From Nitrospiria bacterium (lineage in GTDB: Bacteria; Nitrospirota; Nitrospiria; DASWJH01): a stretch of DNA of 64,000 nucleotides. The notes under the pieces are model-generated. The model saw nothing but the letters and a program-made list of their open reading frames with translations. It made no database searches and was not told the DNA's origin. How positions within the stretch are numbered: the stretch's first letter is position 1; each line of letters begins with the position of its first letter. Below, piece by piece: positions 1-54,980 of this stretch. The position numbers and the translations under genes are program-made. The DNA lies in assembly GCA_036397255.1 (NCBI GenBank), contig DASWJH010000048.1, positions 4,172-68,171 of the forward strand. Reading direction: 5' to 3'.

Positions 1-126
1 GAAAAAGGTATAAAATATTATTTTGCAGTAACAGCTTACGACTTATCCGGGAACGAGAGCGGGTTTTCGGAGGAGAGATCAAAAATAATACAACTAGGAG
101 GAGAATCAAATGAAAAACATAATTAA
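1..126 (+). CDS. 3' end of an upstream gene, truncated by the window edge, whose C-terminus looks like the end of a fibronectin-III-type domain
   Basis: Frame 1 reads ...YYFAVTAYDLSGNESGFSEE... and stops at 124-126. The Y-x-F-x-V-x-A-x-D-x-x-GNES pattern is the typical last beta-strand of an FN3 domain. It overlaps the ATG of the next gene. Confidence 0.4.
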   Translation, partial: EKGIKYYFAVTAYDLSGNESGFSEERSKIIQLGGESNEKHN

Positions 127-1909
127 AGGAAAAAATAAGCGAGGGAAATTTAATTTTACCGCTCTCAAACTTTTCTTCTCTCTAATAGGATTTCTACTTC
201 TGATTCCAAGTTTATCCTTTGCTGCCCCCGTTATTTTTTATACCGATATCACCAGTGGCCCTAATACGGGAGGAGAGAACAATAACGGGATCTATCTGTC
301 CATTTTTGGAAAGGGTTTCGGAACAGTTAAGGGAACATCAACCGTTAAAATTAATGGAACCGAGGTTGCGACATACAAGCAATGGGGAGCACAATCACGC
401 GTCTTTGATTCTCACGGGATCCGAGTTATCACCGTCCAACCGGGTGCTAATGTAAGTGGAGGGCCAATTGTTGTAACGGTCAATGGTGAAGTTTCAAATA
501 ACGATCACACTTTTACTGTTCGATCTGGGGATATTTTCTTCACTGACTGGAATAACGGGAACGACGCAAACGATGGGAGTTTTGGAAATCCGAAAAAATC
601 CGCACAAGCGGTGTTTGATGATAGAGCCAATTTCGGACCTGGAGATACAATTATTTTGATGGGTGGAAATTATGAACAGAAACAAGATGGCCGTGATTAT
701 TTTATGATATTTGAGGATTATCCAATAGGTTCTGAAAACAACCCGACGACGGTCATGGGTTATCCAGGGCAAGACGTATTTATAGATATGCGTACTGCCA
801 ATCCCAGTGGAGGGTATGCGCTGTTTGGAGCTTACACGGTTTCCTCCCAAAACGAAGGACTTGTTCTTTCAAATTTTCGTGGTGATAGTGGAGGAGACAG
901 TGCATTGATTATGAGAGAAACGGCTTATGTAAGATTGGTAAATGCTGAAATAGAAGGTATGTCTAAAACTGGAAGCGGAACAGGAATGATTAGCAGTCAT
1001 GGCGATTACTGGAAAATATTCGGAAATGAGATCCATAACAGCGGAGAGAATAAATTTTACCATGCAATTTATTGGAGCGATCAGGGGCACGACAATGAGA
1101 TTGCTTGGAATTATGTTCACAATATCCGTGGCGGTAGGGGTCTGCAGACTTACGATGCTGGACCTGGTCCGTTTTATAATTATACGATTCATGATAATAT
1201 ATGGCATGACATTGATAGAGATGCAATGGGATTTGGAGGGCCAAGCACAACTGGTTTTAAAATCTACAATAACATTATCTATCGAACTGGACTAGGAACT
1301 GCACCGTATGGTGGAGGGGATGGAGGCAATGGCGGTTCAAGTGGAATCCGTTTTGGAACCTCGGGTACGGTAGCAGAGGTGTATAATAATACCCTGTTTG
1401 ACAATCATTCATTCTCTGGGGCATTTTTTCTGGAATCATTTTCGAGTTTAACAATTAAAAACAATGTAATATTTGCCAACACCTGTAATAGAAATGATAG
1501 TTCGGGAAAAGACCCGGCTGACCCGGCTGGATGCACCGATAGCAACGGGCAATATTTCTATAACGATTTCGGTAAGGATACAAGTAAAATAACGGCAAGC
1601 AACAATGTTTGGTATTCATCTATTCAACCTCCAAGACAAGCTGCTCCGTCATGGGATACTAATCCAATAATACTCAACCCGCAATTTGTTGATCCAACCC
1701 AACCCGCCAGAAACTTCCACCTCCAACCAAGCAGCCCGGTCATCAACGTGGGGGCGCCTACTTCGATTACGAGGGATTTTGATGGAACAATAAGACCCCA
1801 AGGAAATGCTTTCGATATTGGCGCTTATGAATTTTGTGCATCCAACTGCCCTGTGGTTGATACTATTCCCCCAGGAATCCCGACAGGGTTCAATGTTACT
1901 GTAAAATAA
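110..1909 (+). CDS. secreted right-handed parallel beta-helix repeat protein (pectate-lyase-like fold; candidate polysaccharide-active enzyme or surface protein)
   Basis: The N-terminus has a Lys-rich n-region, a hydrophobic core and SFA-AP, which reads as a signal peptide. Periodic Asn-rich repeats (NNIIYRTG, HDNIWHD, YNNTLFDN, KNNVIFAN, SNNVWYSS) are typical of PbH1 beta-helix coils. AGGAGG lies 8 nt upstream of the ATG. The protein ends PPGIPTGFNVTVK, with no PEP-CTERM tail. Confidence 0.6.
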   Translation: MKNIIKGKNKRGKFNFTALKLFFSLIGFLLLIPSLSFAAPVIFYTDITSGPNTGGENNNGIYLSIFGKGFGTVKGTSTVKINGTEVATYKQWGAQSRVFDSHGIRVITVQPGANVSGGPIVVTVNGEVSNNDHTFTVRSGDIFFTDWNNGNDANDGSFGNPKKSAQAVFDDRANFGPGDTIILMGGNYEQKQDGRDYFMIFEDYPIGSENNPTTVMGYPGQDVFIDMRTANPSGGYALFGAYTVSSQNEGLVLSNFRGDSGGDSALIMRETAYVRLVNAEIEGMSKTGSGTGMISSHGDYWKIFGNEIHNSGENKFYHAIYWSDQGHDNEIAWNYVHNIRGGRGLQTYDAGPGPFYNYTIHDNIWHDIDRDAMGFGGPSTTGFKIYNNIIYRTGLGTAPYGGGDGGNGGSSGIRFGTSGTVAEVYNNTLFDNHSFSGAFFLESFSSLTIKNNVIFANTCNRNDSSGKDPADPAGCTDSNGQYFYNDFGKDTSKITASNNVWYSSIQPPRQAAPSWDTNPIILNPQFVDPTQPARNFHLQPSSPVINVGAPTSITRDFDGTIRPQGNAFDIGAYEFCASNCPVVDTIPPGIPTGFNVTVK

Positions 1910-1939: not shown

Positions 1940-1979
1940 CTAAATAAATAAAAAATCCTTTAATGCTCAAATTGAGCTA
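1940..1979. terminator. candidate weak bidirectional terminator between convergent genes
   Basis: A short hairpin gctca-aat-tgagc sits at 1965-1977 and overlaps the stop codon of the 1977..2780 gene. A T-run (ttttttatttattt) follows about 10 nt later on the minus strand. The stem is only 5 bp, so this is weak. Confidence 0.2.
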
Positions 1980-2780
1980 TAAAAGGCGTTTTCCCATACT
2001 TCGGAATTGTTTAACATCGCTCGATTTAGGAAAGGAAAAATAGGAAGTCTGGGTCTTTTCCGGCTCCTGGAATACAACCCTTCCTTGCTTAATATTTTCC
2101 AATATTTCGATCAGGTAAAGGGCACCTAAAGTTTTAGTCCGTTTGATGAGCATATCAAGCGATTCATGTGGGTTGATCTCAAATTCCCTTTGTAATAAAA
2201 ATTTCCCTCGATCCACCTCCTGATCCATTGTATGGATGGTAATTGCCGAAAATTTTTCGTTATGATACATTGCCCAAAAATTTGGGAGCATTCCTCTATA
2301 TTTTGGAAGTTTCGCATTATGTATATTAATGCACCCCCATTTAGGAACATTCAGTATTGCTTCTTTAAATATTTGGGGGGCAGCAACAGATACAATCACA
2401 TCAACCTTCATATCATTTAATCGTTTTATCATCTCTGAATCGTTAATATTTTTGCAGCGAATAACTTTTATTTTATAATAATTGCAAAGGTGCTCAATAT
2501 TAAAAAACGTTTTAAAGTAGATTTTCCCTAACAATGCTCCCAACATCTTATTTTTTGCGTACCGTAACCCTATCCGAAAAAAGTCAACCGGCCCATAAAA
2601 ACCATACATCTGCTTTATCAATTTGGTGATACTCTTTCCCATTGTTCTACATATAATCAAACCTTGAATTTCATAAAGGTTCTTATAGTTATTGAAAAAA
2701 GTTTCAAAGAATATCCTGATATAAAAAGGATCCTCCTGGGTGACAAAAACGATCTTCATGCTTTCCTCACTGTTTCCCAA
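1977..2780 (-). CDS. formyltransferase-domain protein (Fmt/ArnA-N-like; probably a sugar N-formyltransferase)
   Basis: The block VDVIVSVAAPQIF...INIHNAKLPKYRGMLPNFWAMYHNEKFSAITIHTMDQEVDRG matches the formyltransferase core (the H-x-SLLP-x-x-RG motif, the catalytic His and the downstream Asp). It is the last gene of the EPS locus. Confidence 0.65.
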   Translation of the reverse strand: MGNSEESMKIVFVTQEDPFYIRIFFETFFNNYKNLYEIQGLIICRTMGKSITKLIKQMYGFYGPVDFFRIGLRYAKNKMLGALLGKIYFKTFFNIEHLCNYYKIKVIRCKNINDSEMIKRLNDMKVDVIVSVAAPQIFKEAILNVPKWGCINIHNAKLPKYRGMLPNFWAMYHNEKFSAITIHTMDQEVDRGKFLLQREFEINPHESLDMLIKRTKTLGALYLIEILENIKQGRVVFQEPEKTQTSYFSFPKSSDVKQFRSMGKRLL

Positions 2781-3913
2781 ACACTCTTTTTCTCCCCCTT
2801 TAAAATATTAAAAAGGCCCATTAAACAAGCAATATTCACCACACAAAAATAAAGAGGCATGGAAAGAATCCTAACTTTTCCTCCCTTTTTGTCAATAAAC
2901 CATCCCGCAAGCGCCAATAGATATAAACTGAATTGCATGTAGAAAGTGGTATTGTAAAACCAGGGACCCAATAAAAACCAATTCAAGATAAATAATGCAA
3001 TCATCAAAAGGGGAACCAACCAGCGCAGAACCTTATGTGAGATTAATTGGAACGAAACAAACCCATATTTAAAGGGGTTTAACAAGGCTCGCATATGGAG
3101 AATGCCATTCATCCCCCGAGTAATCACTCTGATTCTCATTTTAAATTCCTCAGAGGACCCCTCCGTTGTCGTCTCAAATGCAATTGCTTCTTTTTCAAAT
3201 GCGATTCGATACCCTTTTTCAAGAATTTTTAAGGGTTCCACCAAATCGCTAATGATATCTCTTTTCAACGGTTCATAAAGATCCCTTCGGACGGAATAAA
3301 TACAACCACAGCAACCCGTTATGGTTTTAATGCGGGTTTGGCAAGATTTAATGAAATTCTCATATTTCCAAAAAAATATAGTTGCTATCCCCATTGCCGA
3401 CCCCTTTTTGGTAATATAATTATACCTCCCGCTGACAGCCCCAATGGTGGGATCCGCATAATTTCGAACAATTTTCCGGATGGCATCTCTTCTATATTCC
3501 GTTGTTGCATCTGAAAAAACAATAATCTCTCCCTTTGCATTTATAACGGCTTGGTTTTGGGTTTCGGTTTTACCAACCCTTCCCTCCACCCGGAGCAATC
3601 TAATATTTTCATACTTCCTACGGTATTCATTTACAATCTGATCGGTTCGGTCCGTTGAACCATCCGAAGCAACTAAAATTTCTATTTTAGAAGGAGGATA
3701 TTCCAAATCTTCTGCGTTTTCGAGTTTTTTGCCAATATCTTTCTCTTCATTATAGGCTGTAATCAAAAGGGTTACCGTGGGTTCATATTTATCATTTTTC
3801 TTAACAGGATTTCGAACAAAAATTGAAAACAGGAAAATTGAGAGTGTATACCCCACATAGACATAAAGGATCAGACCCAAGGTAATCCAAAAAAATAAGG
3901 AAGCCATAATCAT
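2756..3913 (-). CDS. membrane-anchored family-2 glycosyltransferase
   Basis: An N-terminal TM helix is followed by LITAYNEE...VASDGSTDRT...VFSDATT (the DxD region) and C-terminal TM helices. This is a GT2 fold in a synthase-like arrangement. Confidence 0.75.
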   Translation of the reverse strand: MIMASLFFWITLGLILYVYVGYTLSIFLFSIFVRNPVKKNDKYEPTVTLLITAYNEEKDIGKKLENAEDLEYPPSKIEILVASDGSTDRTDQIVNEYRRKYENIRLLRVEGRVGKTETQNQAVINAKGEIIVFSDATTEYRRDAIRKIVRNYADPTIGAVSGRYNYITKKGSAMGIATIFFWKYENFIKSCQTRIKTITGCCGCIYSVRRDLYEPLKRDIISDLVEPLKILEKGYRIAFEKEAIAFETTTEGSSEEFKMRIRVITRGMNGILHMRALLNPFKYGFVSFQLISHKVLRWLVPLLMIALFILNWFLLGPWFYNTTFYMQFSLYLLALAGWFIDKKGGKVRILSMPLYFCVVNIACLMGLFNILKGEKKSVWETVRKA

Positions 3914-3929: not shown

Positions 3930-4568
3930 TTACAAATCATAAGGGAAAAATTCCGAAAGGTGGGGAAGCATTCTTTGAATAAAATCCCGGTGAAGTGATT
4001 TTTGTTTTTCAAACTCTTCAGGCATGAAATAAAAGGAAGAAATTTTAACTAAAGCAGCATCAGTTCTTTTATTCAATATTGCGTTTAATGCATATTTAAC
4101 TCTCCCTGATCTCTTCCCCACCACACCATAAGAATCAAGGAAAAAAGCATATGAAACCAGTGCAAAGCGATTATTTTTTTTAAAACTTGCCTGGTTAATT
4201 CTTAATGAATGTTTTCCCGAATGGACAATCTTTGTGGAGGTGTGGACCAAACCCCAATTTTTATCCGGTAAAATGTTTTGTCCCCCAAATATATTATTCC
4301 CATGTCTAAATTTACCCCAATAACCAATATATAAAGATAATATATTTTTTTTCTCGTCTTGAAAATTTCTTAAAAAGATTACACCATCAGGAATGATTAC
4401 AATATTTTCAAAGGTTTCTTCTTGACCAGTCTGGGTCCAATTTCCCAATGCTTCAGGAAAAAGTCCAAAACTTGCCCTCAACGGGGTTCCCTCTCCCAAA
4501 GGGAAAAATTCAACATAAAGGGCAGTGATGCCTAATAAAAAAATTACAATAATCCACTTTTGAATCAC
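3930..4568 (-). CDS. EpsI-family exosortase-associated protein (periplasmic, with a single N-terminal TM helix)
   Basis: It lies immediately downstream of the exosortase. It has an N-terminal TM helix (IIVIFLLGITALYV) and is about 200 aa, the size and position expected of EpsI. The similarity is judged by context and size, not by a strong motif. Confidence 0.45.
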   Translation of the reverse strand: MIQKWIIVIFLLGITALYVEFFPLGEGTPLRASFGLFPEALGNWTQTGQEETFENIVIIPDGVIFLRNFQDEKKNILSLYIGYWGKFRHGNNIFGGQNILPDKNWGLVHTSTKIVHSGKHSLRINQASFKKNNRFALVSYAFFLDSYGVVGKRSGRVKYALNAILNKRTDAALVKISSFYFMPEEFEKQKSLHRDFIQRMLPHLSEFFPYDL

Positions 4569-4598
4569 AAAAGTTACCTTTAAAAATTTTTCTATTGT

Positions 4599-5483
4599 TT
4601 ACTGGCCCTTTAAGGAAAATTTAAGCGGGACGTAAAAAAAACATTTTTTTATTACCCGATCAATGGCGAAGAAACCAACAATGCCAATTAAAATAACAAA
4701 AGTCCACGCATAGCCATGAAACCCATCTGCGATATCATTATTAAAATAATAGGAAATAAACCCGATGGCCGAAATTCTTAGAATATTTGCGGCGATCGCA
4801 AGCGGTATTGCCAAAAGAATAAAAAGGGTTCGAATATAATTGGAATGGTACCCTAAATAAGCAAACACCGAACTAATGGCAAGAAAGGATATGATGGTCT
4901 GCATTCCACTACATGCTTCTACGATTTCTAAAGAAAGTGATGATAGATGAATCACATGTCCTTCTAAAAAAACTGGGATCTGGGCCAAACCTAATATGAA
5001 ACTTGAACTTCCCGCAATAAAAAACTTTAGTTGATTTGCGACAAAATAATTAATGAAATATGGAATGGGTAACATAAAAACCAAATAGGAAATGGGGAAT
5101 AAAAGTGCCTTTAACATGGTAAATCCATAAAGTACGTAAATTATTCCTAATAGAATTGTTACCATCCCAATTCCTTCGATAAAAATCTGGTCAAGAAATT
5201 TTCCCCATATAAAAAGCGACAAACCACTAAAAAGATACAAAACGCTAAGGGAACTTGTTTTATTATTTTCATATTCATAAAGAAGGGAAGCAATTTTTTC
5301 CCGATGGATCCAAATTAGGTATACCGATACGATTGGAATCAAAAATCCATGAGAGAACTCCGGATCACTTCTCCACTCAAAAAATAGTGCCCCCCCCAGA
5401 GGATAAAATAACCAAATTAAAAGAATTGTCATTAACAAGTAGAACAAAACCTTAAATTTATTAAGATTAATGGAGTTACTCAT
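4599..5483 (-). CDS. exosortase (Xrt family transpeptidase)
   Basis: It is a polytopic membrane protein containing EIVEACSGMQTII (the conserved exosortase ACSG active-site Cys block) and a downstream Arg (NILRIS). Its start overlaps the upstream GT4 stop (ATGA). Confidence 0.75.
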   Translation of the reverse strand: MSNSINLNKFKVLFYLLMTILLIWLFYPLGGALFFEWRSDPEFSHGFLIPIVSVYLIWIHREKIASLLYEYENNKTSSLSVLYLFSGLSLFIWGKFLDQIFIEGIGMVTILLGIIYVLYGFTMLKALLFPISYLVFMLPIPYFINYFVANQLKFFIAGSSSFILGLAQIPVFLEGHVIHLSSLSLEIVEACSGMQTIISFLAISSVFAYLGYHSNYIRTLFILLAIPLAIAANILRISAIGFISYYFNNDIADGFHGYAWTFVILIGIVGFFAIDRVIKKCFFYVPLKFSLKGQ

Positions 5484-6727
5484 AATTTTTTAGAAAAAAA
5501 CCTATCTAAAGTTTTAATAAGTTTCTCTGAATCAACTTTCCAATTATATTTCATTTCCACAGCTTTTTTCCCGTTTATTCCATAACCAACTCTGGACTCG
5601 TCCCGCAGTAATTGAATTATTTTTTCACCTAAATCATTACTATCACCGTTTTTAAAAATAACGCCGCACTTTTCTTCTTGAACGATCCTTTGAAGGGGGA
5701 GGCAATCGGAAACCACAACGGGCTTGCCCATGGCCATGTAATCAAAAATTTTATTTGGAATCGTAGTATCCGTATGCTCACTCCGTGAATGAGGGATCGT
5801 GCAAACACTGCTTTTTTTAATTATATTTGGAATGAGAGAAAAATTAACCCACCCTTCAAAATGAACAGAATCCTTTATTCCCATTTTTTCCGCACAGTTT
5901 ATTAAATTCCGTTTCTCTGTTCCATCCCCAACAACCCGCAAAATCGCATTTGGAAACTCTTTTAATACTTTAAGCATCGCCTGGATCAAAATCTTTACCC
6001 CTCGATGTTTATCAATTTTCCCAACATACAAAATGCATGGGTTCAATTCGTCTCCATTAAAATTATCTCCTTGAATCTTTTCTTTTTTATCCAGAAACAA
6101 ATTTAAATTAGGTGTGTTCAAAATGCATGAAATCCTATCCTCCGAAAAACCCATTTTAATCAATCGAGTCTTTTGTTCTTCCGCAACAACAAGAATATGT
6201 TTCATGAACTTTAAAGCAAAATGTTCATAGGTTCGGGGTAACCACCCATTCAAAAAGAGAAAAGGCTTATATCTGGGGTTACCATAGGCAATCAGAGCCG
6301 CGGGATAATTCTCAGCCATGTCTAGGACAACAGGCTTTTTTAAAAATTTACCCAGGACCCCCACCATAAGGGCCAAGGGAAGATCTCGAACAACGATCAA
6401 ATCCACCGAATAGTGGGTAAGGACTTTATAGGTTTTGTAAATCCAAAAAGGGTTAAAAAATATAGGATAGGACAACCATCTAAACCTTACATCCAAAAAT
6501 TCTGACAATTTAAAATAGACACGGTGGATTTCCCCATAGGAAAAAGACTCCATTAACGGCAAATTCTTTTTCCCTCGAGAGATCACATGGATCTCATGGC
6601 CCCGCTCACCTAACCGGTTTATCATCTTTTCCAAACGAATATCCCAAGGATATATACAATGCCAAAGGAATGCTATAATTTCAAATTGTCCGTTATTTCT
6701 CTTCTCTTGATTTTTGAGAGGACTCAT
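5480..6727 (-). CDS. glycosyltransferase family 4 (GT-B, retaining)
   Basis: The C-terminal block EHTDTTIPNKIFDYMAMGKPVVVSD is the GT4 E-x7-E donor-binding motif. Confidence 0.8.
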   Translation of the reverse strand: MSPLKNQEKRNNGQFEIIAFLWHCIYPWDIRLEKMINRLGERGHEIHVISRGKKNLPLMESFSYGEIHRVYFKLSEFLDVRFRWLSYPIFFNPFWIYKTYKVLTHYSVDLIVVRDLPLALMVGVLGKFLKKPVVLDMAENYPAALIAYGNPRYKPFLFLNGWLPRTYEHFALKFMKHILVVAEEQKTRLIKMGFSEDRISCILNTPNLNLFLDKKEKIQGDNFNGDELNPCILYVGKIDKHRGVKILIQAMLKVLKEFPNAILRVVGDGTEKRNLINCAEKMGIKDSVHFEGWVNFSLIPNIIKKSSVCTIPHSRSEHTDTTIPNKIFDYMAMGKPVVVSDCLPLQRIVQEEKCGVIFKNGDSNDLGEKIIQLLRDESRVGYGINGKKAVEMKYNWKVDSEKLIKTLDRFFSKKL

Positions 6728-34995: not shown

Positions 34996-35591
34996 CAGTT
35001 ACCACCTCCTTTTACAGCAACTCTTTTCTCAAATTTTGTATAGCAGGATTTCAAAAAATGAGACAAAAAGATTAAGGAGAAAATCACAACGAGTTCAATC
35101 CCAATGGCAAGTAGGTTGTAGGGTTGAAGGATCGTTGCAATCCATTCATGGGTTCCCACAGAAGTAGAATGGGCATGACTGACGCCTAATAAAATTTGGA
35201 ATGGAGCCTGATAAGTCTCTCCACTGATAGGCCAAAATAGGGGAATTCCGTAAGGCGGCCGTTTATCCGGACCAAACATGTCTAAAAGGAGATGCGAAGC
35301 GTATGCAAATGATAGTATCCATCCGGATGGGATGATCAACTTTGTCTTTTTAAGATTGATAACCATTGATATCAAGAATCCAGAGGTTAAAGCGAAGATC
35401 AGGCTATGCGAAATCCCCTGATGGTAAAGCGCTGGTTTCCCTTGAATAATCCCAGGAATGAAATCCAAATCGGGAGCAACTGCAAGGAAAAGGCATAGGG
35501 ATAAAAATAAGGGTCTGTTAAAAAACTGGTTTCCAGATGCTATCTTATAAATGAGGTAACCTGCCAAGGCATGTCCAATAGGCGTTGCCAT
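34995..35591 (-). CDS. membrane-bound metal-dependent hydrolase-like protein (YdjM/DUF457 type)
   Basis: It is a small 198-aa polytopic protein with an N-terminal MATPIGHALAGY and several His residues in helices (HQGISHS, SHLLLD). Confidence 0.4.
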   Translation of the reverse strand: MATPIGHALAGYLIYKIASGNQFFNRPLFLSLCLFLAVAPDLDFIPGIIQGKPALYHQGISHSLIFALTSGFLISMVINLKKTKLIIPSGWILSFAYASHLLLDMFGPDKRPPYGIPLFWPISGETYQAPFQILLGVSHAHSTSVGTHEWIATILQPYNLLAIGIELVVIFSLIFLSHFLKSCYTKFEKRVAVKGGGN

Positions 35592-42117: not shown

Positions 42118-43011
42118 TTAATCATTTTTTTTGATATTTGCCTTTTCTTGATATTCTTTTAATAGGTCTCTCATTGGCCCGAATTTAAATTCCTTCAATA
42201 ATTTTTTTAACCGGGGCTCCGTTTTCTCTAAAAAAATATAATGTCGAAACCGTGACAACATACTCCCCTCTAATCTTGGCTGGTTTGTATCAATTTCCCA
42301 CGGATGTAAATAAACAATGATGGGTTGATTTTCTTTTTCAACAATACTATTTAACCCCCAACGAAGGAACCAATAAGGAAATAATCTCAAATAACCTCCC
42401 CCAGCAATGGGAATATTGTTATTTAGAATTTTAATGGTCGACAGAGGGATCTCTAAAATATCGGACCCATTCTTTCCATTAATTCTATATGGAAACCTTT
42501 TCGCATTGGGAATTCCATAACGGTCCCTTCGTATGGGAAAAATACTCGAATCGTATAAAAAACCCTCCTCCATCATGATATCCAATGCCCACAAGGAATT
42601 TTCAGTAATCGAGTAACTGGGTGCGCGATACCCAATGACAGGTTCTCCAATTATTTCTTCAAGAATTCCCTTAGACTTATTCAAGTCATCCCTAAATTCC
42701 TGTGGGTTTTGCTTGTATACCAACCGATGGGCATAACTATGGGAAGCAATTTCATGACCTTCTTTATGAATCCGTTTTACCAGCTCAGGAAATTTCTCAG
42801 CGATCCACCCCAAAATAAAGAAAGTTGCCTTCACATTATATTCATTCAAGATAGATAAAAGTTTATCGGTGTTGGCTTCAGCACGGCATTCAAAGTTACC
42901 CCAATCCTCAAATCTTATTTGAGATTCAAAGCCCGAAACATTAAAATAATCTTCTACATCAATGGTTAAAGCATTGATCATTGACTTTTTTAACCTCGTA
43001 GCTAGCGGCAA
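42118..43011 (-). CDS. polysaccharide deacetylase family protein (the exosortase-locus-associated subfamily)
   Basis: LTIDVEDYFNV...HSYAH. The IDVEDYF start is characteristic of the deacetylase subfamily found in PEP-CTERM loci. Confidence 0.6.
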   Translation of the reverse strand: MPLATRLKKSMINALTIDVEDYFNVSGFESQIRFEDWGNFECRAEANTDKLLSILNEYNVKATFFILGWIAEKFPELVKRIHKEGHEIASHSYAHRLVYKQNPQEFRDDLNKSKGILEEIIGEPVIGYRAPSYSITENSLWALDIMMEEGFLYDSSIFPIRRDRYGIPNAKRFPYRINGKNGSDILEIPLSTIKILNNNIPIAGGGYLRLFPYWFLRWGLNSIVEKENQPIIVYLHPWEIDTNQPRLEGSMLSRFRHYIFLEKTEPRLKKLLKEFKFGPMRDLLKEYQEKANIKKND

Positions 43012-49645: not shown

Positions 49646-51040
49646 CTATCGGGCCCCTGCTCCAATGAGAACAATTTTAATTGTTTGGAAAACCACAGTT
49701 AAATCAAAAAACAGAGACATATTTTTTACGTAGAAAAGATCGTATTGTAATTTTTCCAAAGCATCATCGACACTTGAACCATAACGAAATTTAATTTGAG
49801 CCCATCCAGTAATTCCAGGTTTCACAGTATGCCGAATTGAATAATAAGGTATCTTTTCTATTAGTTCCTCAATAAAATGGGCCCGCTCTGGCCTGGGGCC
49901 AACAAAACTCATTTCCCCTTTCAGCACATTGACCATTTGTGGTAATTCATCGATTCTGGTTTTTCTAAGAATCTTTCCCACCCGGGTTACTCGGGGATCA
50001 TCTTTTTTGGCCCAAACCGGCCCCGAAACAGATTCAGCATTTAATGTCATCGATCGGAATTTGAGTAATGTAAATATTCGCCCATTTTCCCCAACGCGCT
50101 CTTGTCTATAGAAAACCGGCCCCGGAGAACCTAATCGAATCAACAGTGGAACCAACAAGAAAATAGGAAAGGCCAAAAAAAGCCCTATGATAGAAAAAGT
50201 TATATCAAATAGGCGTTTTAAAATCTGCAAACTTCGTGGCTTTTTAAACCCTCCTGAAAAAATCAGCCAACTGGGTTTAAGTTCCTCCACGCTGATCTTT
50301 CCGCTGATCTGTTCATAAAAAGAAACCCCATCAATTATTTTAATCCCTTTTACTTTACACTGTAACAGCTCATTCAATGGCAAATTTCCACGACGGTCCG
50401 GCAATGCAACAATTACCTTTTTAATATTCCACTGCTCTATAATTTGGGTTAATTTTTTGTAATCCCCAATCACACCTGGATTAACTATCTTTTTCCCCAG
50501 TTTCTCTGGGTCGTTATCAATAAAGCCAACAATCTTATAACCTAGATCCCTTTTAGTGTGTAGAATTTCACCAACATTTTTAGCAAGACGGCCTGATCCC
50601 ACAATCAATACCGACTCTTTAAACTTCCCTATATCCATAAATTTAAAATAGAGTACACGAAGGGTAAAAAAAATCAGAAAAAGGAAATTAGCTGAAACGA
50701 ATAGGCTCACCCTCCCAATTTCAGCAGAAGGAAAAATATAATAAATAACGACTAAAATAACACACCCTACGCCCAAGGATTGCATCAATCGCAATATCAA
50801 TTTTCTTCCTTTTATTTCTTCATCCAATACATATAAATCGTTGTAATAAAGGCAGAGCTGAAATATTACGGAAATTAAAAGTGCCTTCCAAAAGAAATGG
50901 TCAAAAGAAACCACCGAATCCGATAAAAAGAATTTCCTAAAAGAAATTCCTAGTAATACCACCCCTAGAATAAAAAGGTTTTCAATTATAAAAAAAATCA
51001 AATTTTTTAAGATAACAAGTCGCCCAAATATGTTCAGCAT
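49646..51040 (-). CDS. polyprenyl-phosphate sugar phosphotransferase (WbaP/EpsB-type initiating sugar transferase)
   Basis: It has N-terminal TM helices, a central Rossmann-like domain, and a C-terminal KRLFDITFSIIGL...DELPQMVNVLKGEMSFVGPRPE, the bacterial sugar-transferase signature. Confidence 0.85.
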   Translation of the reverse strand: MLNIFGRLVILKNLIFFIIENLFILGVVLLGISFRKFFLSDSVVSFDHFFWKALLISVIFQLCLYYNDLYVLDEEIKGRKLILRLMQSLGVGCVILVVIYYIFPSAEIGRVSLFVSANFLFLIFFTLRVLYFKFMDIGKFKESVLIVGSGRLAKNVGEILHTKRDLGYKIVGFIDNDPEKLGKKIVNPGVIGDYKKLTQIIEQWNIKKVIVALPDRRGNLPLNELLQCKVKGIKIIDGVSFYEQISGKISVEELKPSWLIFSGGFKKPRSLQILKRLFDITFSIIGLFLAFPIFLLVPLLIRLGSPGPVFYRQERVGENGRIFTLLKFRSMTLNAESVSGPVWAKKDDPRVTRVGKILRKTRIDELPQMVNVLKGEMSFVGPRPERAHFIEELIEKIPYYSIRHTVKPGITGWAQIKFRYGSSVDDALEKLQYDLFYVKNMSLFFDLTVVFQTIKIVLIGAGAR

Positions 51041-51222: not shown

Positions 51223-52224
51223 TCAATAGGGATACCCATAATATCTTGTGAACCCGGATTCCATTCCGTTCAAAACAATTGCCCACACTTTCTCGGCAGG
51301 AAGACCAGCGAAAGCTTTTAGGACTAAGTCTCTTGGTGTCATTCCTGCCCTAACAACAAATAGGATTCCATTCACCAGTTCCGAAAAAATATTCATGTCG
51401 GCTAATGGTAAAACCGGAGGTGAATCGATAATGATGTATTCAAATTCCATTTCGGCCTGGGAAAGAGCCTCAGCCATTTTTGGTAAACTTAAAAGTCTGG
51501 TTGAATTTTTCTCATTGCTTCCAGCCGGTAACATAAAAAGTTTTTCGGTCAAAAAGGGATAGATACATTCCTCCAATGAATTATTTCTCGCAAGTATATC
51601 CACCAAACCTTTACCACATGGGGATTTTAAATATCGATGAAGATCCGGTTTTTTTAAATCTCCTTCAATAATAAGTGTCTTTTTATTAAAATCCTTGGCC
51701 ATGGTAACTCCCAGGTTTACAGACGTAGTGGTCTTTCCTTCCCCCTTTACAGAACTCGATATTGCAATGCGCTTTTGTTTTCCTTCCCCATTCATATGTT
51801 TGAATCGGGAATATAAAACCCGATACTGTTCACTGGCCATGGACTGGGGTTCCAAAAGTGCGATCGGATGCTCATCCATTTTCCTTTTCCTCTCCCCTTT
51901 TACAATTTCCCTTCTAACATTTAGGTCTTTCCTGCTATTTGAAAGCGTTAAAGCCCGGTGATCTATTTTTAAATATTTAAAATCCTCATCTTTGACCCCG
52001 GCAAAACGGTATGGGCTAAAATGAGCTCCATTGTTTTTCTTATTCATTACCAACTTATAAGCAGTAAGAATTTTTTCAAGGTTCATTTTTTCTTCTGTTC
52101 CGAGAAAACGACCATTTTTAAGACCAATAAATTCCTTAACAGCCAAATCAAAGGCTTTTTGTATTTCTTCCCTATTTGACTCAGGGTTAATTTTCAAAAT
52201 TTTAAAACTTTCTTCTTTTTTCAT
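51223..52224 (-). CDS. BY-kinase (bacterial tyrosine autokinase) cytoplasmic ATPase subunit
   Basis: Walker A is ISSSVKGEGKTTTSVNLG. The C-terminal tyrosine cluster is RYYGYPY. It is coupled by ATGA to the upstream chain-length determinant. Confidence 0.75.
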   Translation of the reverse strand: MKKEESFKILKINPESNREEIQKAFDLAVKEFIGLKNGRFLGTEEKMNLEKILTAYKLVMNKKNNGAHFSPYRFAGVKDEDFKYLKIDHRALTLSNSRKDLNVRREIVKGERKRKMDEHPIALLEPQSMASEQYRVLYSRFKHMNGEGKQKRIAISSSVKGEGKTTTSVNLGVTMAKDFNKKTLIIEGDLKKPDLHRYLKSPCGKGLVDILARNNSLEECIYPFLTEKLFMLPAGSNEKNSTRLLSLPKMAEALSQAEMEFEYIIIDSPPVLPLADMNIFSELVNGILFVVRAGMTPRDLVLKAFAGLPAEKVWAIVLNGMESGFTRYYGYPY

Positions 52225-53735
52225 TCTTTAAATAATTTTGGGTTCAAAAATTTTTTCTGACCTTCTTTTTTTTCCTTGATAGGACGGAATTTTATTTTTT
52301 TATATTTAGAAAATTTTGGAATGGATACAACCAAAGGACCCTTCATGACACCCTCTAAATCCTCAGGTTGTCTGAAACAGGGATTCAACATCTCAATCAA
52401 TAAAGCAAGCCCGAAACCTGAGGCTGCTCCAGCAAAACTTCCAGCAAGCAGGAGCTTTCGAAGATTTGGTTTATATGGTTTTTCTGGTAAATTGGCGGGG
52501 TCAATGATGCGAAAACGCTCCCCTTGTTGCCGTTTTTCGAGATTTTCCGAAAGCCTCGCATTTATACTTTTCCCCAATAGGTTCTGATAATTCCCTTGGG
52601 ACATATCGTAATCTCTTTGGAGTTTTTTAAGTTCAACTTCTAACATTGGCGTACGAGCGACTCTTGTTTCATAGCCTCTAATCTTCTCTACCAAAAGTTT
52701 CCCGGTCACTTCCAAGTCTTTAATCTCCCTTAAGATTTTCTGGTGTTGATCAAGGAGACGTTTGTAATTTTCATTTTCCCGGAGAAAAGGGATATCACCT
52801 GTAGGGTTTGATTTTGTGGTGGATTGGGAAAGCTGAGCCTCCATTTCCCGTATTTGTTTTTTTAAAAGGATGACATCGGGATAATTTTCTTTATATACAA
52901 TCCGAAGATTTTTGAGTTTTTCCCTTAATTGTTGAAGCGGCATATTTGGTTCCTCAATAGAAGACGCTGAATTTGTAGTGAAATTGAGGGCTTCTTGTTT
53001 CAATTTCAAAATTTGATTCTCTAGATCCTGGGCTCGATCTTCCTTTGAATTTATTAAATCTCTGTTGGCTTGAAAATTAATTTGAAGCCGGTCTAAGGTT
53101 CTTAGGTTTGAGTCTATTTCACTCGGCAATCCCCCTCTATTTTTCTCTTTAAACCTTCTGATATTCTCATCAAGGCTGTCCATTTGTTTTTTGGCTTCCG
53201 CCAATTCTTTCTGAAGGAAATTGGTTGTAACCTGGGCCTGTTGTTCCCGGACTTTAAGGTTTTCTTCAATGAAGCGTGAAGCGATTCGATTGGTTACGTT
53301 CATGACTTTTTCAGGGTCTTTTCCAACAAAACTGATCGAAAATGCCTGTTTTCCTACAACATCCAATTGAATATTTTTTTGCAGCTTTTCAACAACCGAT
53401 TCCTTTCCTAACTCAGCAAACTCTTTAGGAAAAAGGTCCAATTCGTCCCGCAGTTTAATTAAATTGGTCCGGCTCATTACCTGCTGGCTAATTGTTTTCA
53501 ACCGTTCCGAAATTGGAGTAGTTACAGTTGATTTAACGTAATCCTGGGGTATTATTTGGGGTTCGACTAAAATCATTGTGGTGGACCGATACGCTTTAGG
53601 GAGCCAATAACTTAGCCCTAGGCTAACCCCCAGGGCTACAATGATTGGAAAAAAGATCCAATATCTACGTCTAAAAAAAACATCAATATATTGGAAGATC
53701 ATCTTTTGAATTTCAGGTGAAAATTGGTTATTCAT
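52221..53735 (-). CDS. polysaccharide chain-length determinant (PCP/Wzz-like, transmembrane activator of the BY-kinase)
   Basis: There is an N-terminal TM helix (YWIFFPIIVALGVSLGLSYWL), a long periplasmic coiled-coil region (KQMDSLDENIRRFKEKN...), and a C-terminal TM helix (LLAGSFAGAASGFGLALLIE). Confidence 0.7.
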   Translation of the reverse strand: MNNQFSPEIQKMIFQYIDVFFRRRYWIFFPIIVALGVSLGLSYWLPKAYRSTTMILVEPQIIPQDYVKSTVTTPISERLKTISQQVMSRTNLIKLRDELDLFPKEFAELGKESVVEKLQKNIQLDVVGKQAFSISFVGKDPEKVMNVTNRIASRFIEENLKVREQQAQVTTNFLQKELAEAKKQMDSLDENIRRFKEKNRGGLPSEIDSNLRTLDRLQINFQANRDLINSKEDRAQDLENQILKLKQEALNFTTNSASSIEEPNMPLQQLREKLKNLRIVYKENYPDVILLKKQIREMEAQLSQSTTKSNPTGDIPFLRENENYKRLLDQHQKILREIKDLEVTGKLLVEKIRGYETRVARTPMLEVELKKLQRDYDMSQGNYQNLLGKSINARLSENLEKRQQGERFRIIDPANLPEKPYKPNLRKLLLAGSFAGAASGFGLALLIEMLNPCFRQPEDLEGVMKGPLVVSIPKFSKYKKIKFRPIKEKKEGQKKFLNPKLFKE

Positions 53736-53752
53736 TCATAAGGTCCTTTATG

Positions 53753-54949
53753 TTAGAAAGACGGAAAAATCGCTAAAAGTTGCATTTGAACCCGGTTTCT
53801 ATAAAGATCTTCACCCAGATTTCCACCAGATACCTGCCGGTTATGGGTATAAGAAACATTTCCAGATAACCATTTGTTAAATAAATAGTTCAATGTTGCA
53901 TTCAATCTAAAAAATTGAATGTCAACCTCCCCCCCCTTTATGGTTTTATTCGTACCATAACTTCCCCCCATTTGACCGGTAAGGAACTGTGTAAAACTCT
54001 TTGAAAGTGATACCCTTACATTTTGATGTTGAACCAAGCGATTGACCAAACCGGTTGACCTAATATCCTGGTTATATGAAAAATTAATTTTAGTATTTCT
54101 TTCCAACAAAAAACCTTTATCGATATTGCCTGAAAAAAAAGGCCTATATTCCTCGGTCCCAGCTTCGGCCAAATGAAGAACTCCCCCCTCAACCTGAAAA
54201 CTAAAAGTGGAGGAAAAAATATGCCTCCATCCCAGAGTGGCCAAATAAGTATCGGAGCTGTCCTCCCCATCAAACGAAACATTTTGATAGCGGGCAGCAA
54301 GGGTCATTGTATCATTTCGAAATAATTGGTAGGCATAGGTAGACTTAAGCGATTGCCCAAAACGATCCACAAGAGTTGGATCGGAATATTCTGTAAGGGT
54401 ATTTGTATATTCTAAAGACGCCTGAGCGCGCCGAGAAAGTTGATATCGGTATTCTGCTCCAAAATGATTCCGAAAGGCCGTGTTTCTCCCTACCTGGGTT
54501 CCATCATCTTCACCTGTAACCACACCGGGGTCTAACTCATAATCAGGTAAATCAGGCGTTATGACAAATCTTTCGGTAAAGGTTAGTTCTCCCCTCTTGT
54601 TAAAACGGTTAAGGAGCCGATCAAGGTTTAAGTCCAACCCCCCATTCTGGTTATAACGATTCAGTTGGGAGTGGTCTGCGTAAACATCCAAACTTCCTCT
54701 ATAGGTTAAAGCCGTGCTCACAAGAGGCCACTGGTAACTGACCCTTAAAGTTGGCGATATAGATGTAATATAATCAGATTCACGGTCAGAACCGCTGGAA
54801 AATATATTGTCATCAAAGGTTTCTGTGAACGACATAGCAGGTTCCACTATCAATTCACCTTTTACAATCTCGCAAGTTCCCATAATTAAAAAACCCCAGA
54901 TAAAAAGAAATAACCCAATAAAAAAAATAAAGTTTCTCATAAAGGCCAA
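53753..54949 (-). CDS. outer-membrane beta-barrel protein (exosortase/EPS-locus-associated OMP)
   Basis: It has a signal peptide and alternating amphipathic beta-strand pattern throughout, and ends ...QLLAIFPSF, a C-terminal Phe OMP signature. Confidence 0.55.
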   Translation of the reverse strand: MAFMRNFIFFIGLFLFIWGFLIMGTCEIVKGELIVEPAMSFTETFDDNIFSSGSDRESDYITSISPTLRVSYQWPLVSTALTYRGSLDVYADHSQLNRYNQNGGLDLNLDRLLNRFNKRGELTFTERFVITPDLPDYELDPGVVTGEDDGTQVGRNTAFRNHFGAEYRYQLSRRAQASLEYTNTLTEYSDPTLVDRFGQSLKSTYAYQLFRNDTMTLAARYQNVSFDGEDSSDTYLATLGWRHIFSSTFSFQVEGGVLHLAEAGTEEYRPFFSGNIDKGFLLERNTKINFSYNQDIRSTGLVNRLVQHQNVRVSLSKSFTQFLTGQMGGSYGTNKTIKGGEVDIQFFRLNATLNYLFNKWLSGNVSYTHNRQVSGGNLGEDLYRNRVQMQLLAIFPSF

Positions 54950-54980
54950 GGCATGGATTATTGGGAAATTTCTAACAAAC

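What the first reader, a model, noticed from the sequence alone, without database searches (positions are those of the whole stretch)
3930..5483. Exosortase and EpsI are present, but no PEP-CTERM substrate is visible in the window
The 294-aa membrane protein carries the exosortase ACSG Cys motif and is followed by a separate ~210-aa single-TM protein in the EpsI position. Neither of the two secreted proteins at the left edge (1..126, 110..1909) ends in a PEP-x-TM-basic sorting tail (ORF1 ends ...TGFNVTVK). The sortase's substrates must therefore be encoded elsewhere. Finding them genome-wide would reveal which proteins this system anchors.
Basis: partly seen in the sequence, partly recalled or inferred. 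Interest (0 to 1): 0.5.

Follow-up and report, generated by a model that had tools for sequence, protein, structure and literature searches.

The report
Exosortase locus with unusual cysteine-tailed neighbours
A real exosortase and its EpsI partner sit in a large slime-polysaccharide gene cluster of an uncultured Nitrospiria bacterium with no classical PEP-CTERM client in view, but the surface proteins encoded just past the window's left edge carry a conserved, undescribed cysteine-containing C-terminal tail that may be its client signal.

Summary
Window 4599-5483(-) is an exosortase (TIGR02602 180 bits, cut-off 106; Cys191/Arg236/His256 invariant). Window 3930-4568(-) is EpsI (TIGR02914 62.5, cut-off 42.8). 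No ORF in the 64 kb has a PEP-CTERM-like tail. No named exosortase subtype reaches its cut-off (XrtA 159 vs 208). The locus is still XrtA-type: TIGR03013 and TIGR03006 pass, and PrsK/PrsR lie beside an orthologous locus.

"Substrates elsewhere" is only half the story. The two left-edge genes belong to a four-gene same-strand cluster, a presumed operon. Its other two members lie 0.3 and 2.8 kb outside the window. They are Fn3 proteins ending in GGCG[FMY], a spacer of about 15-20 residues, a TM segment and a basic cluster.

This tail flanks the exosortase in all five clade members with enough flank. It also lies beside exosortase/PrsKR/PEP-CTERM EPS loci in three other lineages. About 44 non-redundant copies were collected. 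No NCBIfam or Pfam model matches it, although TIGR02595 scored canonical tails in the same runs.

Whether the exosortase processes it is unproven (about 0.4). A myxosortase-like route or a plain membrane anchor remain open. Canonical PEP-CTERM clients may also exist; the genome could not be scanned.

The parts
4599..5483 (-). Exosortase, 294 aa, polytopic membrane cysteine protease/transpeptidase-like enzyme. It belongs to an XrtA-like clade that passes no named subtype cut-off.
   Evidence: TIGR02602 179.9 bits (cut-off 105.55); PF09721 184.4; XrtA 159.2 (<208); XrtW 179.3 (<425); XrtD 156.7 (<400). Cys191/Arg236/His256 invariant in A2. At least 6 strongly hydrophobic segments. Clade of 11 proteins at 36-100% identity to the window protein, then a drop to about 32-35%.
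3930..4568 (-). EpsI family protein, 212 aa, single N-terminal TM segment, encoded immediately downstream of the exosortase.
   Evidence: TIGR02914 62.5 bits (cut-off 42.8); PF11984 81.1. It also aligns to the C-terminal EpsI-like halves of the fused XrtD and XrtW models. One hydrophobic segment at residues 6-24.
2756..3913 (-). Family-2 glycosyltransferase, syntenic partner downstream of EpsI in every clade member.
   Evidence: PF00535 86.4 bits; same position in L007, L008, L010, L011, L012.
1977..2780 (-). Formyltransferase, last gene of the exosortase operon, convergent with the secreted-protein cluster.
   Evidence: PF00551 80.6 bits; conserved synteny.
110..1909 (+). Secreted 599-aa protein with a choice-of-anchor Q domain (the beta-helix fold is my reading, not tested). 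It has no TM anchor, ends in ...DTIPPGIPTGFNVTVK, and is the last gene of the four-gene secreted-protein cluster.
   Evidence: NF041518 44.8 bits at residues 532-575; signal peptide visible in the sequence; orthologues end in the same PPxxPxxLxVK motif.
1..126 (+). C-terminal 41 residues of a 121-aa Fn3 lipoprotein, third gene of the cluster. The two upstream genes, a 770-aa and a 177-aa Fn3 protein with GGCG tails, lie outside the window at about -328 to -2640 and -2799 to -3332.
   Evidence: Full gene on L001 15358-15723(-); tail-bearing genes on L001 15812-18124(-) and 18283-18816(-). Mapping used: window x = L001 (15484 - x).
5480..6727 (-). GT4 glycosyltransferase immediately upstream of the exosortase, overlapping it by 4 nt (same operon).
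   Evidence: PF00534 96.6 bits; best NCBIfam hit TIGR04063, a PEP-CTERM/XrtA system glycosyltransferase (97.9, below cut-off).
49646..51040 (-). TIGR03013 XrtA/PEP-CTERM-system priming glycosyltransferase, a marker that the whole locus is XrtA-type.
   Evidence: 506.7 bits, cut-off 393.35.
42118..43011 (-). XrtA-system polysaccharide deacetylase (TIGR03006).
   Evidence: 396.8 bits, cut-off 276.2.
51223..56039 (-). Tyrosine autokinase, chain-length determinant, outer-membrane protein and polysaccharide export protein. Their best hits are the XrtA-system versions.
   Evidence: TIGR03018 140.6, TIGR03007 265.2 (cut-off 278.85), TIGR03016 62.0, TIGR03027 150.7; all are best hits but just below cut-off.
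56771..58204 (-). Sigma-54-dependent response regulator. It is not PrsR by the curated cut-off.
   Evidence: TIGR02915 323.3 bits vs cut-off 502.6, matching only the AAA+ core; AtoC/NtrC models score higher.

Best explanation
The 294-aa protein is a functional exosortase, a membrane-embedded Cys/Arg/His protease-transpeptidase. It has a separately encoded EpsI partner and sits inside a roughly 55-kb XrtA/PEP-CTERM-type exopolysaccharide locus of an uncultured Nitrospiria bacterium. It belongs to a small, unnamed XrtA-like clade. The window holds no classical PEP-CTERM client.

The most likely clients in view are the Fn3 surface proteins encoded convergently next to the exosortase operon, just outside the window. 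These have a Sec signal peptide and a C-terminal module: an invariant GGCG[M/F/Y], a Gly/Pro-rich spacer of about 15-20 residues that usually ends in GPGQAA[D/E]M (P-x-D in this species), a hydrophobic helix of 12-17 residues, and a basic cluster.

Proposed mechanism (inferred, not shown): after export the tail holds the protein in the inner membrane. The exosortase, with EpsI, recognises the acidic motif that abuts the helix, removes the helix and basic cluster, and hands the protein on for attachment at the cell surface or in the EPS matrix. The conserved Cys stays on the mature protein as a possible attachment or lipidation site. There it would act together with the tail-less lyase-like enzymes of the same gene cluster.

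Canonical PEP-CTERM clients may exist elsewhere in the genome as well. In other lineages the same cassette sits next to PrsK/PrsR and ordinary PEP-CTERM genes.
For: Shown:
- Exosortase and EpsI pass their HMM cut-offs and the catalytic residues are conserved.
- The locus is XrtA-type: TIGR03013 and TIGR03006 pass, and five further XrtA-system models are best hits.
- PrsK (334.6 bits, cut-off 300) followed by a sigma-54 response regulator lies about 1 kb from the tail operon on the contig of a clade member with 56% exosortase identity.
- Tail-bearing genes lie next to the exosortase operon in every clade locus with enough flank: L001 (two genes), L007, L008/L034, L011 and L012. They sit on both Fn3 and non-Fn3 proteins.
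- A metagenome scan with the tail alone returned 11 loci. L028 has an exosortase 2.4 kb away in the same convergent layout plus a PEP-CTERM protein. L025 and L026 have PrsK and PrsR (L025's both above cut-off; L026's by homology only), two TIGR02595-positive proteins each, and homologous EPS glycosyltransferases.
- 44 non-redundant tails share GGC[GA] (required by the search pattern), then M (36/44), GP (36/44), an acidic residue before the helix (29/44) and a basic cluster.
- No other sorting-type enzyme (CPBP, rhomboid, sortase) appears in the Pfam annotation covering most of the 64-kb window, and no CPBP-like ORF was found by motif search in the window or any fetched flank.
- Sigma-54-like -24/-12 sites scoring 9 or more of 12 lie upstream of four of seven tail operons, against 3% of random 450-nt windows.
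- Two unrelated exosortase loci (L021, L022) have no such tail.
Against: - There is no direct evidence of cleavage.
- The tail is not tied to one exosortase subtype. L028's enzyme is XrtC-like (175.8 bits) rather than of the Nitrospiria clade. In L025, L026 and L028 ordinary PEP-CTERM proteins are also present, so the exosortase there already has conventional clients.
- High-GC tail loci (L023, L029-L031) and L033, whose tail looks MYXO-CTERM-like, show no exosortase or EPS genes within the fetched flanks.
- Signals cut by deeply embedded enzymes normally have the signature motif abutting the helix with no spacer (Haft, bioRxiv 10.1101/2023.06.07.544157, read). Here the invariant motif sits a median of 19 residues upstream.
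- An invariant Cys is the hallmark of myxosortase (CPBP) signals, not of exosortase signals.
- Only one or two tail genes are seen per locus, whereas PEP-CTERM typically has about eight per genome (PMC1569441).
- The sigma-54-like sites lie 200-415 nt from the predicted starts, further than typical PEP-CTERM promoters.
Confidence: 0.4

Rival explanations
1. The exosortase serves ordinary PEP-CTERM proteins encoded elsewhere in the genome, probably beside PrsK/PrsR beyond the assembly break to the left. The GGCG tail is a separate sorting signal of the MYXO-CTERM kind: the Cys is lipidated and the tail is cut by a CPBP/Rce1-like intramembrane glutamic protease (myxosortase-type) encoded elsewhere.
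For: - An invariant Cys in a Gly-rich motif followed by a TM segment and basic cluster is the architecture of MYXO-CTERM, JDVT-, Synerg- and CGP-CTERM, all assigned to CPBP proteases. MrtX cleavage has been shown experimentally and needs the Cys (PMC11980579).
- The Fn3 parts of the tail proteins repeatedly give weak hits to the 'MXAN_2561 family MYXO-CTERM-anchored protein' model. In P0063 that alignment runs up to the Cys.
- The tail scan also picked up L033, a homologue of a 'myxosortase-dependent metalloprotease' with a short-spacer GGCGM tail.
- Canonical PEP-CTERM genes sit right after PrsK/PrsR in L025, L026 and L035.
- L023 and L029-L031 carry the tail without any exosortase in view.
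Against: - No CPBP-like gene lies within the 64-kb window or any of about 20 flanks.
- No MYXO-CTERM or other Cys-signal model hits any tail even at E<=10 (at E<=1).
- The 15-20-residue spacer is unlike all four described Cys signals, whose motif abuts the helix.
- Eight of ten non-myxobacterial tail lineages are embedded in exosortase/PEP-CTERM EPS loci.
- No canonical PEP-CTERM protein was seen in any of the five Nitrospiria-clade contigs, including 3.4 kb past PrsR in L034.
Confidence: 0.3
2. The GGCG tail is not a cleaved sorting signal at all. It is a permanent C-terminal membrane anchor with a conserved periplasmic juxtamembrane motif. It holds an Fn3 scaffold at the inner membrane next to the EPS assembly machinery. 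The exosortase acts only on remote PEP-CTERM proteins, or has an EPS-assembly role without protein clients.
For: - A TM helix followed by basic residues is also simply the positive-inside rule for a type-I anchor.
- There are only one or two copies per locus, always inside one conserved cassette (tail Fn3 protein, small Fn3 lipoprotein, then enzymes ending in PPxxPxxLxV). This looks like a structural component rather than a modular tag.
- Many tails are followed by 10-40 variable residues after the basic cluster.
- epsH genes nearly always lie among EPS biosynthesis genes (PMC1569441).
Against: - The tail occurs on unrelated N-terminal architectures: Fn3 arrays of 170-990 aa, a DNRLRE/disaggregatase-like protein, and non-Fn3 229-245-aa proteins. 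That is the behaviour of a modular signal.
- Strong conservation of GGCGM and PGPGQAADM across 43-66% GC lineages implies recognition by an enzyme or partner.
Confidence: 0.2
3. The exosortase/EpsI pair is a decayed or orphan remnant with no clients in this organism.
For: No named subtype cut-off is reached, and no PEP-CTERM protein is seen in any clade contig.
Against: - Both ORFs are intact and the protein sequence is identical in 14 contigs from independent samples.
- The catalytic Cys/Arg/His and 45 other positions are invariant across relatives down to 36% identity.
- Operon structure and synteny are conserved. All of this argues for purifying selection.
Confidence: 0.03

Closest known systems
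XrtA / PEP-CTERM / EpsH-EpsI system (TIGR03109, TIGR02602, TIGR02914, TIGR02595; Haft 2006, PMC1569441)
   Same: An exosortase with a Cys/Arg/His triad and a separate EpsI immediately downstream, embedded in an EPS locus. XrtA-system marker genes TIGR03013 and TIGR03006 are above cut-off. The XrtA-type chain-length determinant, tyrosine kinase, export protein, outer-membrane protein and amidotransferase are best hits. PrsK/PrsR lie next to the orthologous locus L034.
   Different: The exosortase scores 159 against the XrtA cut-off of 208 and forms its own clade (about 32-35% identity to XrtA-annotated proteins). No TIGR02595 protein occurs in the window or in five clade contigs. The neighbouring tailed proteins have GGCG-spacer-[D/E] instead of PEP. 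No PrsK, PrsR or PrsT gene is in the window.
MYXO-CTERM / myxosortase (MrtX, CPBP family) and the other Cys-containing C-terminal signals (JDVT-, Synerg-, CGP-CTERM)
   Same: An invariant Cys in a Gly-rich signature, then a TM helix, then a basic cluster, at the C-terminus of Sec-exported surface proteins including Fn3-rich ones. The Fn3 regions give weak hits to the MXAN_2561 MYXO-CTERM-anchored family.
   Different: The Cys motif is separated from the helix by about 15-20 conserved Gly/Pro-rich residues instead of abutting it. No MYXO-CTERM model hit. No CPBP gene in any neighbourhood. The genomic context is exosortase/PEP-CTERM EPS loci in Nitrospirota-like and other non-myxobacterial lineages.
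Variant exosortase signal pairs (XrtC/VPDSG-CTERM, XrtD/VPLPA-CTERM, and dedicated exosortases with an adjacent single target)
   Same: A distinct exosortase clade next to proteins with a distinct non-PEP tail. The P-x-D immediately before the helix in this species' tails (PVDMAMF, PTDFAMF) recalls VPDSG. L028's neighbouring exosortase is XrtC-like.
   Different: No VPDSG or VPLPA model hit on the tails. There is an extra invariant GGCG element upstream. The tail is found beside at least two different exosortase subtypes, so a one-to-one pairing is not established.
LPXTG/sortase signals
   Same: [quoted passage not shown]
   Different: Different motif, a Gram-positive wall-anchoring enzyme, and no sortase in the locus.

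Membership tests
Exosortase (EpsH; TIGR02602 / PF09721) | Scores above the curated HMM cut-offs | tested here: met
   TIGR02602 179.9 bits vs 105.55; PF09721 184.4 vs 25.7; TIGR04178 64.1 vs 23.
Exosortase (EpsH; TIGR02602 / PF09721) | Conserved Cys, Arg and His putative catalytic residues | tested here: met
   C191, R236 and H256 are invariant in the 11-sequence alignment A2 (residues checked). The triad is as described.
Exosortase (EpsH; TIGR02602 / PF09721) | Polytopic (about 8 TM) membrane protein located among EPS biosynthesis genes | tested here: met
   At least 6 strongly hydrophobic 19-mers by a crude Kyte-Doolittle scan, so the exact number of TM segments was not resolved. The gene is flanked by GT4, GT2, deacetylase, Wzy and flippase genes.
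XrtA (exosortase A, TIGR03109) | Scores above the XrtA-specific cut-off (208 bits) | tested here: not met
   159.2 bits. NCBI's annotation names it only 'exosortase'.
XrtA (exosortase A, TIGR03109) | Accompanied by XrtA-system EPS markers | tested here: met
   TIGR03013 506.7 vs 393.35 and TIGR03006 396.8 vs 276.2. TIGR03007, 03018, 03027, 03016 and 03108 are best hits below cut-off.
XrtA (exosortase A, TIGR03109) | PrsK/PrsR two-component system in the genome | tested here: inconclusive
   Not in the window: the sigma-54 regulator at 56771-58204 scores 323 vs 502.6. PrsK passes (334.6 vs 300) and a sigma-54 response regulator follows it on the contig of clade member L034. This species' assemblies break before that position.
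XrtA (exosortase A, TIGR03109) | Multiple PEP-CTERM (TIGR02595) proteins in the same genome | not testable with these tools
   None in the window or in clade contigs L001, L007, L008/L034, L010-L013. The clade is absent from the GTDB representative genomes scanned.
EpsI (TIGR02914 / PF11984) | HMM above cut-off, and adjacent to or fused with an exosortase | tested here: met
   62.5 bits vs 42.8; PF11984 81.1 vs 26.1; the gene starts 31 nt downstream of the exosortase stop.
PEP-CTERM sorting domain (TIGR02595), applied to the neighbouring GGCG tails | Pro-Glu-Pro motif abutting the TM helix; model hit of at least 16 bits | tested here: not met
   No hit at E<=10 for isolated tails or whole proteins (at E<=1). 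The same tool scored canonical tails at 19.1-29.5 bits in L025, L026 and L028.
PEP-CTERM sorting domain (TIGR02595), applied to the neighbouring GGCG tails | C-terminal hydrophobic helix followed by a basic cluster on Sec-exported proteins | tested here: met
   Uncharged run of 12-17 residues, then a median of 3 Arg/Lys in the next 8 residues in 44 tails. Signal peptides are visible in the sequences.
MYXO-CTERM / Cys-containing myxosortase signals, applied to the GGCG tails | Invariant Cys in the signature motif | tested here: met
   GGCG is invariant in alignments A1, A3 and A5. The 44 pooled tails were selected by the GGC[GAS] pattern, so that set does not test invariance.
MYXO-CTERM / Cys-containing myxosortase signals, applied to the GGCG tails | Signature motif abuts the TM helix without a spacer | tested here: not met
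   Median of 19 residues between the Cys and the uncharged run; the criterion is taken.
MYXO-CTERM / Cys-containing myxosortase signals, applied to the GGCG tails | Co-occurrence with a CPBP-family myxosortase | tested here: inconclusive
   No PF02517-type gene in the Pfam annotation covering most of the window, and no CPBP motif pattern in 513 ORFs of the window plus loci. Genome-level co-occurrence cannot be tested here.

The most novel reading that the evidence does not exclude
GGCG[M]-x(15-20)-[D/E]-TM-basic is a previously undescribed class of exosortase-dependent sorting signal. It would be the first with an invariant Cys and a structured spacer. A new XrtA-like exosortase/EpsI subfamily would use it to fix an Fn3 scaffold protein to the cell surface or EPS matrix. 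That scaffold would then dock the co-encoded, anchor-less polysaccharide-modifying enzymes through their conserved C-terminal orphan Fn3 strand (PPxxPxxLxV).
Probability: 0.3. Interest if true: 0.7.

Novelty: new variant of a known kind. Interest (0 to 1): 0.5.

Why it matters
Exosortase systems are thought to tie surface proteins to biofilm and floc matrices in environmental bacteria. Very few enzyme-signal pairs have been defined, and almost none tested.

This locus offers a compact, testable case: one exosortase/EpsI pair, one or two adjacent candidate clients with a sharply conserved non-PEP tail, and PrsK/PrsR nearby in a relative. If the pairing holds, it widens the range of signals an exosortase can read and links Cys-containing tails, so far assigned to CPBP proteases, to the exosortase world. 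If it fails, the tail is an orphan sorting domain looking for its enzyme, which is also useful to curators of sorting-signal models.

For annotation today, these proteins are 'hypothetical' and the tail has no model.

Tried and rejected
- **Tail scans in the window.** Scans of all window ORFs of 50 aa or more for C-terminal TM-plus-basic tails, and a six-frame regex for GGCG tails, found nothing relevant in the window.
- **GTDB representative genomes.** The single-protein scan found no relative. The clade-alignment scan found only two relatives at 29% identity (Acidobacteriota, Planctomycetota). So no named genome of this clade could be examined.
- **Seeing further left.** Every assembly of this species stops about 4.27 kb upstream of the 599-aa gene, at what looks like a transposase fragment.
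- **Tail-profile search of the 5.8-billion-protein index.** It returned only 6 short fragments, because of the word-index limit. One call failed on an E-value limit.
- **Representative-library search.** It was dominated by generic Fn3 repeats (631 hits), so tails had to be picked out by pattern. The family size is therefore only a lower bound.
- **YdjM-family membrane hydrolase as an alternative processing enzyme.** It is present in the window and beside the tail gene in L029/L030 but nowhere else, so it was dropped.
- **Window sigma-54 regulator as PrsR.** Rejected on the cut-off.
- **Canonical PEP-CTERM genes after PrsR in clade member L034.** The two downstream genes have no such tail.
- **Archaeosortase or another family for the 294-aa protein.** Rejected.
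Full report
**1. What is at the coordinates**

The region holds two minus-strand genes: 4599-5483 (294 aa) and 3930-4568 (212 aa).

The first is an exosortase:
- PF09721 184.4 bits (cut-off 25.7), TIGR02602 179.9 (cut-off 105.55), and the exo/archaeosortase signature TIGR04178 64.1 (cut-off 23).
- Archaeosortase models are far below threshold.
- The ACSG motif is at residues 190-193.
- Cys191, Arg236 and His256, the triad inferred for this family, are invariant in an alignment of the 11 closest relatives.

The second is EpsI: TIGR02914 62.5 bits (cut-off 42.8), PF11984 81.1, and one N-terminal hydrophobic segment.

NCBI's own names for the identical proteins are 'exosortase' (HEX9757363.1) and 'EpsI family protein' (HEX9757362.1) from a 'Nitrospiria bacterium' MAG. 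The same exosortase sequence is found on 14 metagenome contigs.

**2. Which exosortase**

No named subtype reaches its cut-off: XrtA 159.2 vs 208, XrtW 179.3 vs 425, XrtD 156.7 vs 400, XrtV 136.4 vs 313. In a search of 5.8 billion proteins the enzyme belongs to a tight group of 11 sequences. These are 36-100% identical to the window protein in the clade alignment. Identity then drops to about 32-35% for proteins annotated XrtA.

The surrounding 55 kb is nevertheless an XrtA-type EPS locus:
- TIGR03013 (506.7 vs 393) and the XrtA-system deacetylase TIGR03006 (396.8 vs 276) pass.
- The XrtA-system chain-length determinant, tyrosine kinase, export protein, outer-membrane protein and amidotransferase are the best hits for their genes.
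- The rest is glycosyltransferases, Wzy, a flippase, sulfotransferase and sulfatase-family genes, CysD/N and similar.

The sigma-54 regulator in the window is not PrsR by the curated cut-off (323 vs 503).

**3. Is there a client in the window?**

No. No window ORF that encodes a secreted protein ends in a hydrophobic helix plus basic cluster. The 599-aa protein (110-1909) carries a choice-of-anchor Q domain but stops without an anchor.

**4. What lies just outside**

Metagenome contigs carrying the identical genes extend 4.2 kb beyond window position 1. Window x corresponds to L001 position 15484 - x.

The two left-edge genes are the last two of a four-gene same-strand cluster (presumably an operon), convergent with the exosortase operon. 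The order is: 177-aa Fn3 protein, 770-aa Fn3/DNRLRE protein, 121-aa Fn3 lipoprotein, 599-aa enzyme.

The first two end in:
- ...STAGGCGFTSSTPPSKGGPVDMAMFIIPGLLGLRSLMKRRQLRL...
- ...TSAGGCGFLKNSNASSKKPTDFAMFLVPIGLVLRLFFNKFLQK...

The stop codon of the 770-aa gene is only 329 bp left of the window.

**5. The tail is conserved and travels with the exosortase**

I fetched the loci of six further clade members (40-76% exosortase identity by BLAST; 38-75% in alignment A2). All keep the order GT4, exosortase, EpsI, GT2, formyltransferase, followed by convergent secreted-protein genes.

In every locus with enough flank a neighbour carries the same kind of tail:
- L007: ...SAGGCGMINPTDGGPSGPAQAAEMVTLFGVILLLLLKK...
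- L008: ...SGGCGMIFRKDGQHLGPGQAADMMVLLAVPLIALMRRK...
- L011 and L012...GGGCGYIKN...NEYGQ...ILI[TA]PLLI...[KR]... on a non-Fn3 protein.

The contigs of L010 and L013 end too early to judge.

**6. The tail is a family**

A profile of the tails recovered further fragments. A full HMMER pass over 1.84 billion representatives gave 631 hits, most driven by the Fn3 strand I had to include. About 38 of the best 150 carry the tail.

Pooled with the loci, there are 44 non-redundant tails, all selected by the pattern GGC[GAS]:
- The residue after the motif is M in 36, F in 3, I in 3 and Y in 2.
- GP occurs in the spacer in 36.
- An acidic residue followed by a hydrophobic one, just before the helix, occurs in 29.
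- The median distance from the Cys to the uncharged run is 19 residues.
- The uncharged run is 12-17 residues, followed by a basic cluster (median 3 of the next 8 residues).

The consensus is GGCGM[IV]xPxxGxPPGPGQAA[DE]M, then a TM helix, then [RK]-rich residues.

No NCBIfam (June 2026) or Pfam model hits any tail at E<=10, and none at the stricter E<=1 searches. The same tool scored canonical PEP-CTERM tails above cut-off (19-29.5 bits vs 16) in control proteins.

**7. Converse test: from tail to context**

Scanning JGI metagenome contigs with the tail alone gave 11 loci of 43-66% GC.
- **L028:** an exosortase 2.4 kb downstream in the same convergent layout (XrtC-like, 175.8 bits), plus a TIGR02595-positive choice-of-anchor N protein.
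- **L025 and L026:** a PrsK-like kinase and a sigma-54 regulator (in L025 scored as PrsK 421.9 vs 300 and PrsR 631 vs 503; L026's are assigned by homology only), two TIGR02595-positive proteins each, and homologues of the GT2, GT4 and Wzy genes of the window.
- **All three:** the cassette is the same. It consists of the tail Fn3 protein, a small Fn3 lipoprotein, then enzymes ending in PPxxPxxLxV. One of these enzymes is a HepB-like lyase.
- **L023 and L029-L031:** no EPS or exosortase genes within the flanks.
- **L033:** looks myxobacterial, being a homologue of a myxosortase-dependent metalloprotease, and has a short spacer.
- **L024, L027 and L032:** short contigs or near-duplicates of these, adding no further context.

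On clade member L034 (the same contig as L008), PrsK (334.6 vs 300) and a sigma-54 response regulator lie about 1 kb from the tail operon. The next two genes have no PEP-CTERM tail. A PrsK relative at 79% identity (L035) is followed by two classic GVPEPASLLLLGSGLAGLGLWGRRRF proteins.

**8. Other sorting enzymes**

The Pfam annotation covering most of the window shows no CPBP/CAAX protease, rhomboid or sortase. A CPBP motif search over 513 ORFs of the window and loci found none.

**9. Sigma-54**

Sites scoring 9 or more of 12 against TGGCACG-N4-TTGCW, with GG and GC required, lie upstream of the tail operons in L001 (-415), L034 (-226), L012 (-201) and L026 (-242). Only 3% of random 450-nt windows reach that score. 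This is suggestive only. The distances are long, and the canonical PEP-CTERM genes I had did not score well.

**10. Interpretation**

Shown:
- A genuine, conserved exosortase/EpsI pair in an XrtA-type locus.
- No PEP-CTERM protein in view.
- A conserved, unmodelled Cys-containing C-terminal module on the adjacent exported proteins.
- Strong neighbourhood association of that module with exosortase/PEP-CTERM EPS loci.

Inferred: the exosortase processes it, with recognition at the acidic motif abutting the helix and the Cys retained on the mature protein. I put this at about 0.4.

The main rival (0.3) is a MYXO-CTERM-like route through a CPBP protease encoded elsewhere, with ordinary PEP-CTERM clients for the exosortase. 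It is supported by the invariant Cys. It is opposed by the spacer, the lack of any model hit, and the absence of CPBP genes nearby.

A permanent membrane anchor (0.2) and a relic enzyme (0.03) are the other options.

**11. Novelty**

The enzyme is a new, small clade of a known family. The tail, as far as current Pfam and NCBIfam models and the papers searched show, is undescribed. It differs in architecture from both PEP-CTERM (no PEP motif) and the Cys signals (long conserved spacer). I rate it a new variant of a known kind, with interest 0.5.

Noticed in passing
window 1860-1909 (C-terminus of the 599-aa protein); also L007 13519-15939, L011 10394-12100, L012 5744-7498, L008 14962-16785, L010 13878-14372, L025 10599-14137, L028 10341-11765: The anchor-less secreted enzymes of the cassette belong to different families (the choice-of-anchor Q protein, a PKD protein, a HepB-like lyase), yet all end in the same short peptide D-T-x-P-P-x-x-P-x-x-L-x-V-[KQEN]*. 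This looks like the linker plus first strand of an Fn3 domain. It may be a docking peptide for the co-encoded Fn3 proteins.
   Followed up: partly
window 45591-47546, about 28480-29631, 9901-11130, 16525-17922, 44214-45569: CysD/CysN-like sulfate-activation genes, a sulfotransferase and several sulfatase/phosphodiesterase-family genes lie inside the EPS locus. This suggests a sulfated exopolysaccharide. One relative's cassette encodes a heparin-sulfate-lyase-like enzyme (L025 11936-14137).
   Followed up: no
L001 19532-19639 (about 4.1 kb left of window position 1): All independent assemblies of this species end at the same point. The last ORF fragment (...SLFEKTPILQALS...) resembles the C-terminus of a 389-aa ORF in L025 (3273-4442). 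It is probably a multicopy IS transposase that breaks the assemblies and hides what lies beyond. By analogy with L034 that could be PrsK/PrsR.
   Followed up: partly
L001 18096-18227 (-) and L008 17676-17852 (-): A small ORF starting MG[AT]QS.GA and containing S[IL]LAAF lies directly upstream of, or overlapping, the start of the tail-bearing gene in two clade members.
   Followed up: no
window 58284-58299 (-); 56106-56624; 58618-59550: A sigma-54-like site (TGGTACAATCCTTGCA, one mismatch) lies 95 nt upstream of the sigma-54 response-regulator gene. That gene is flanked by two GGDEF proteins. In relatives a PilZ gene sits next to PrsK (L034 9288-9533, L035 9378-9713), hinting at c-di-GMP control of the locus.
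   Followed up: no
window 34995-35591 (-); L029 501-1475; L030 6446-7027: A YdjM-family membrane metal-hydrolase lies in the EPS locus. A distant relative sits divergently next to the tail gene in the high-GC loci L029 and L030. It is not found in the other tail loci.
   Followed up: yes
L025 9800-10606: In L025 the tail-bearing ORF runs in frame, without a stop codon, into the following small Fn3 lipoprotein gene. This is either a fusion or a missing stop.
   Followed up: no
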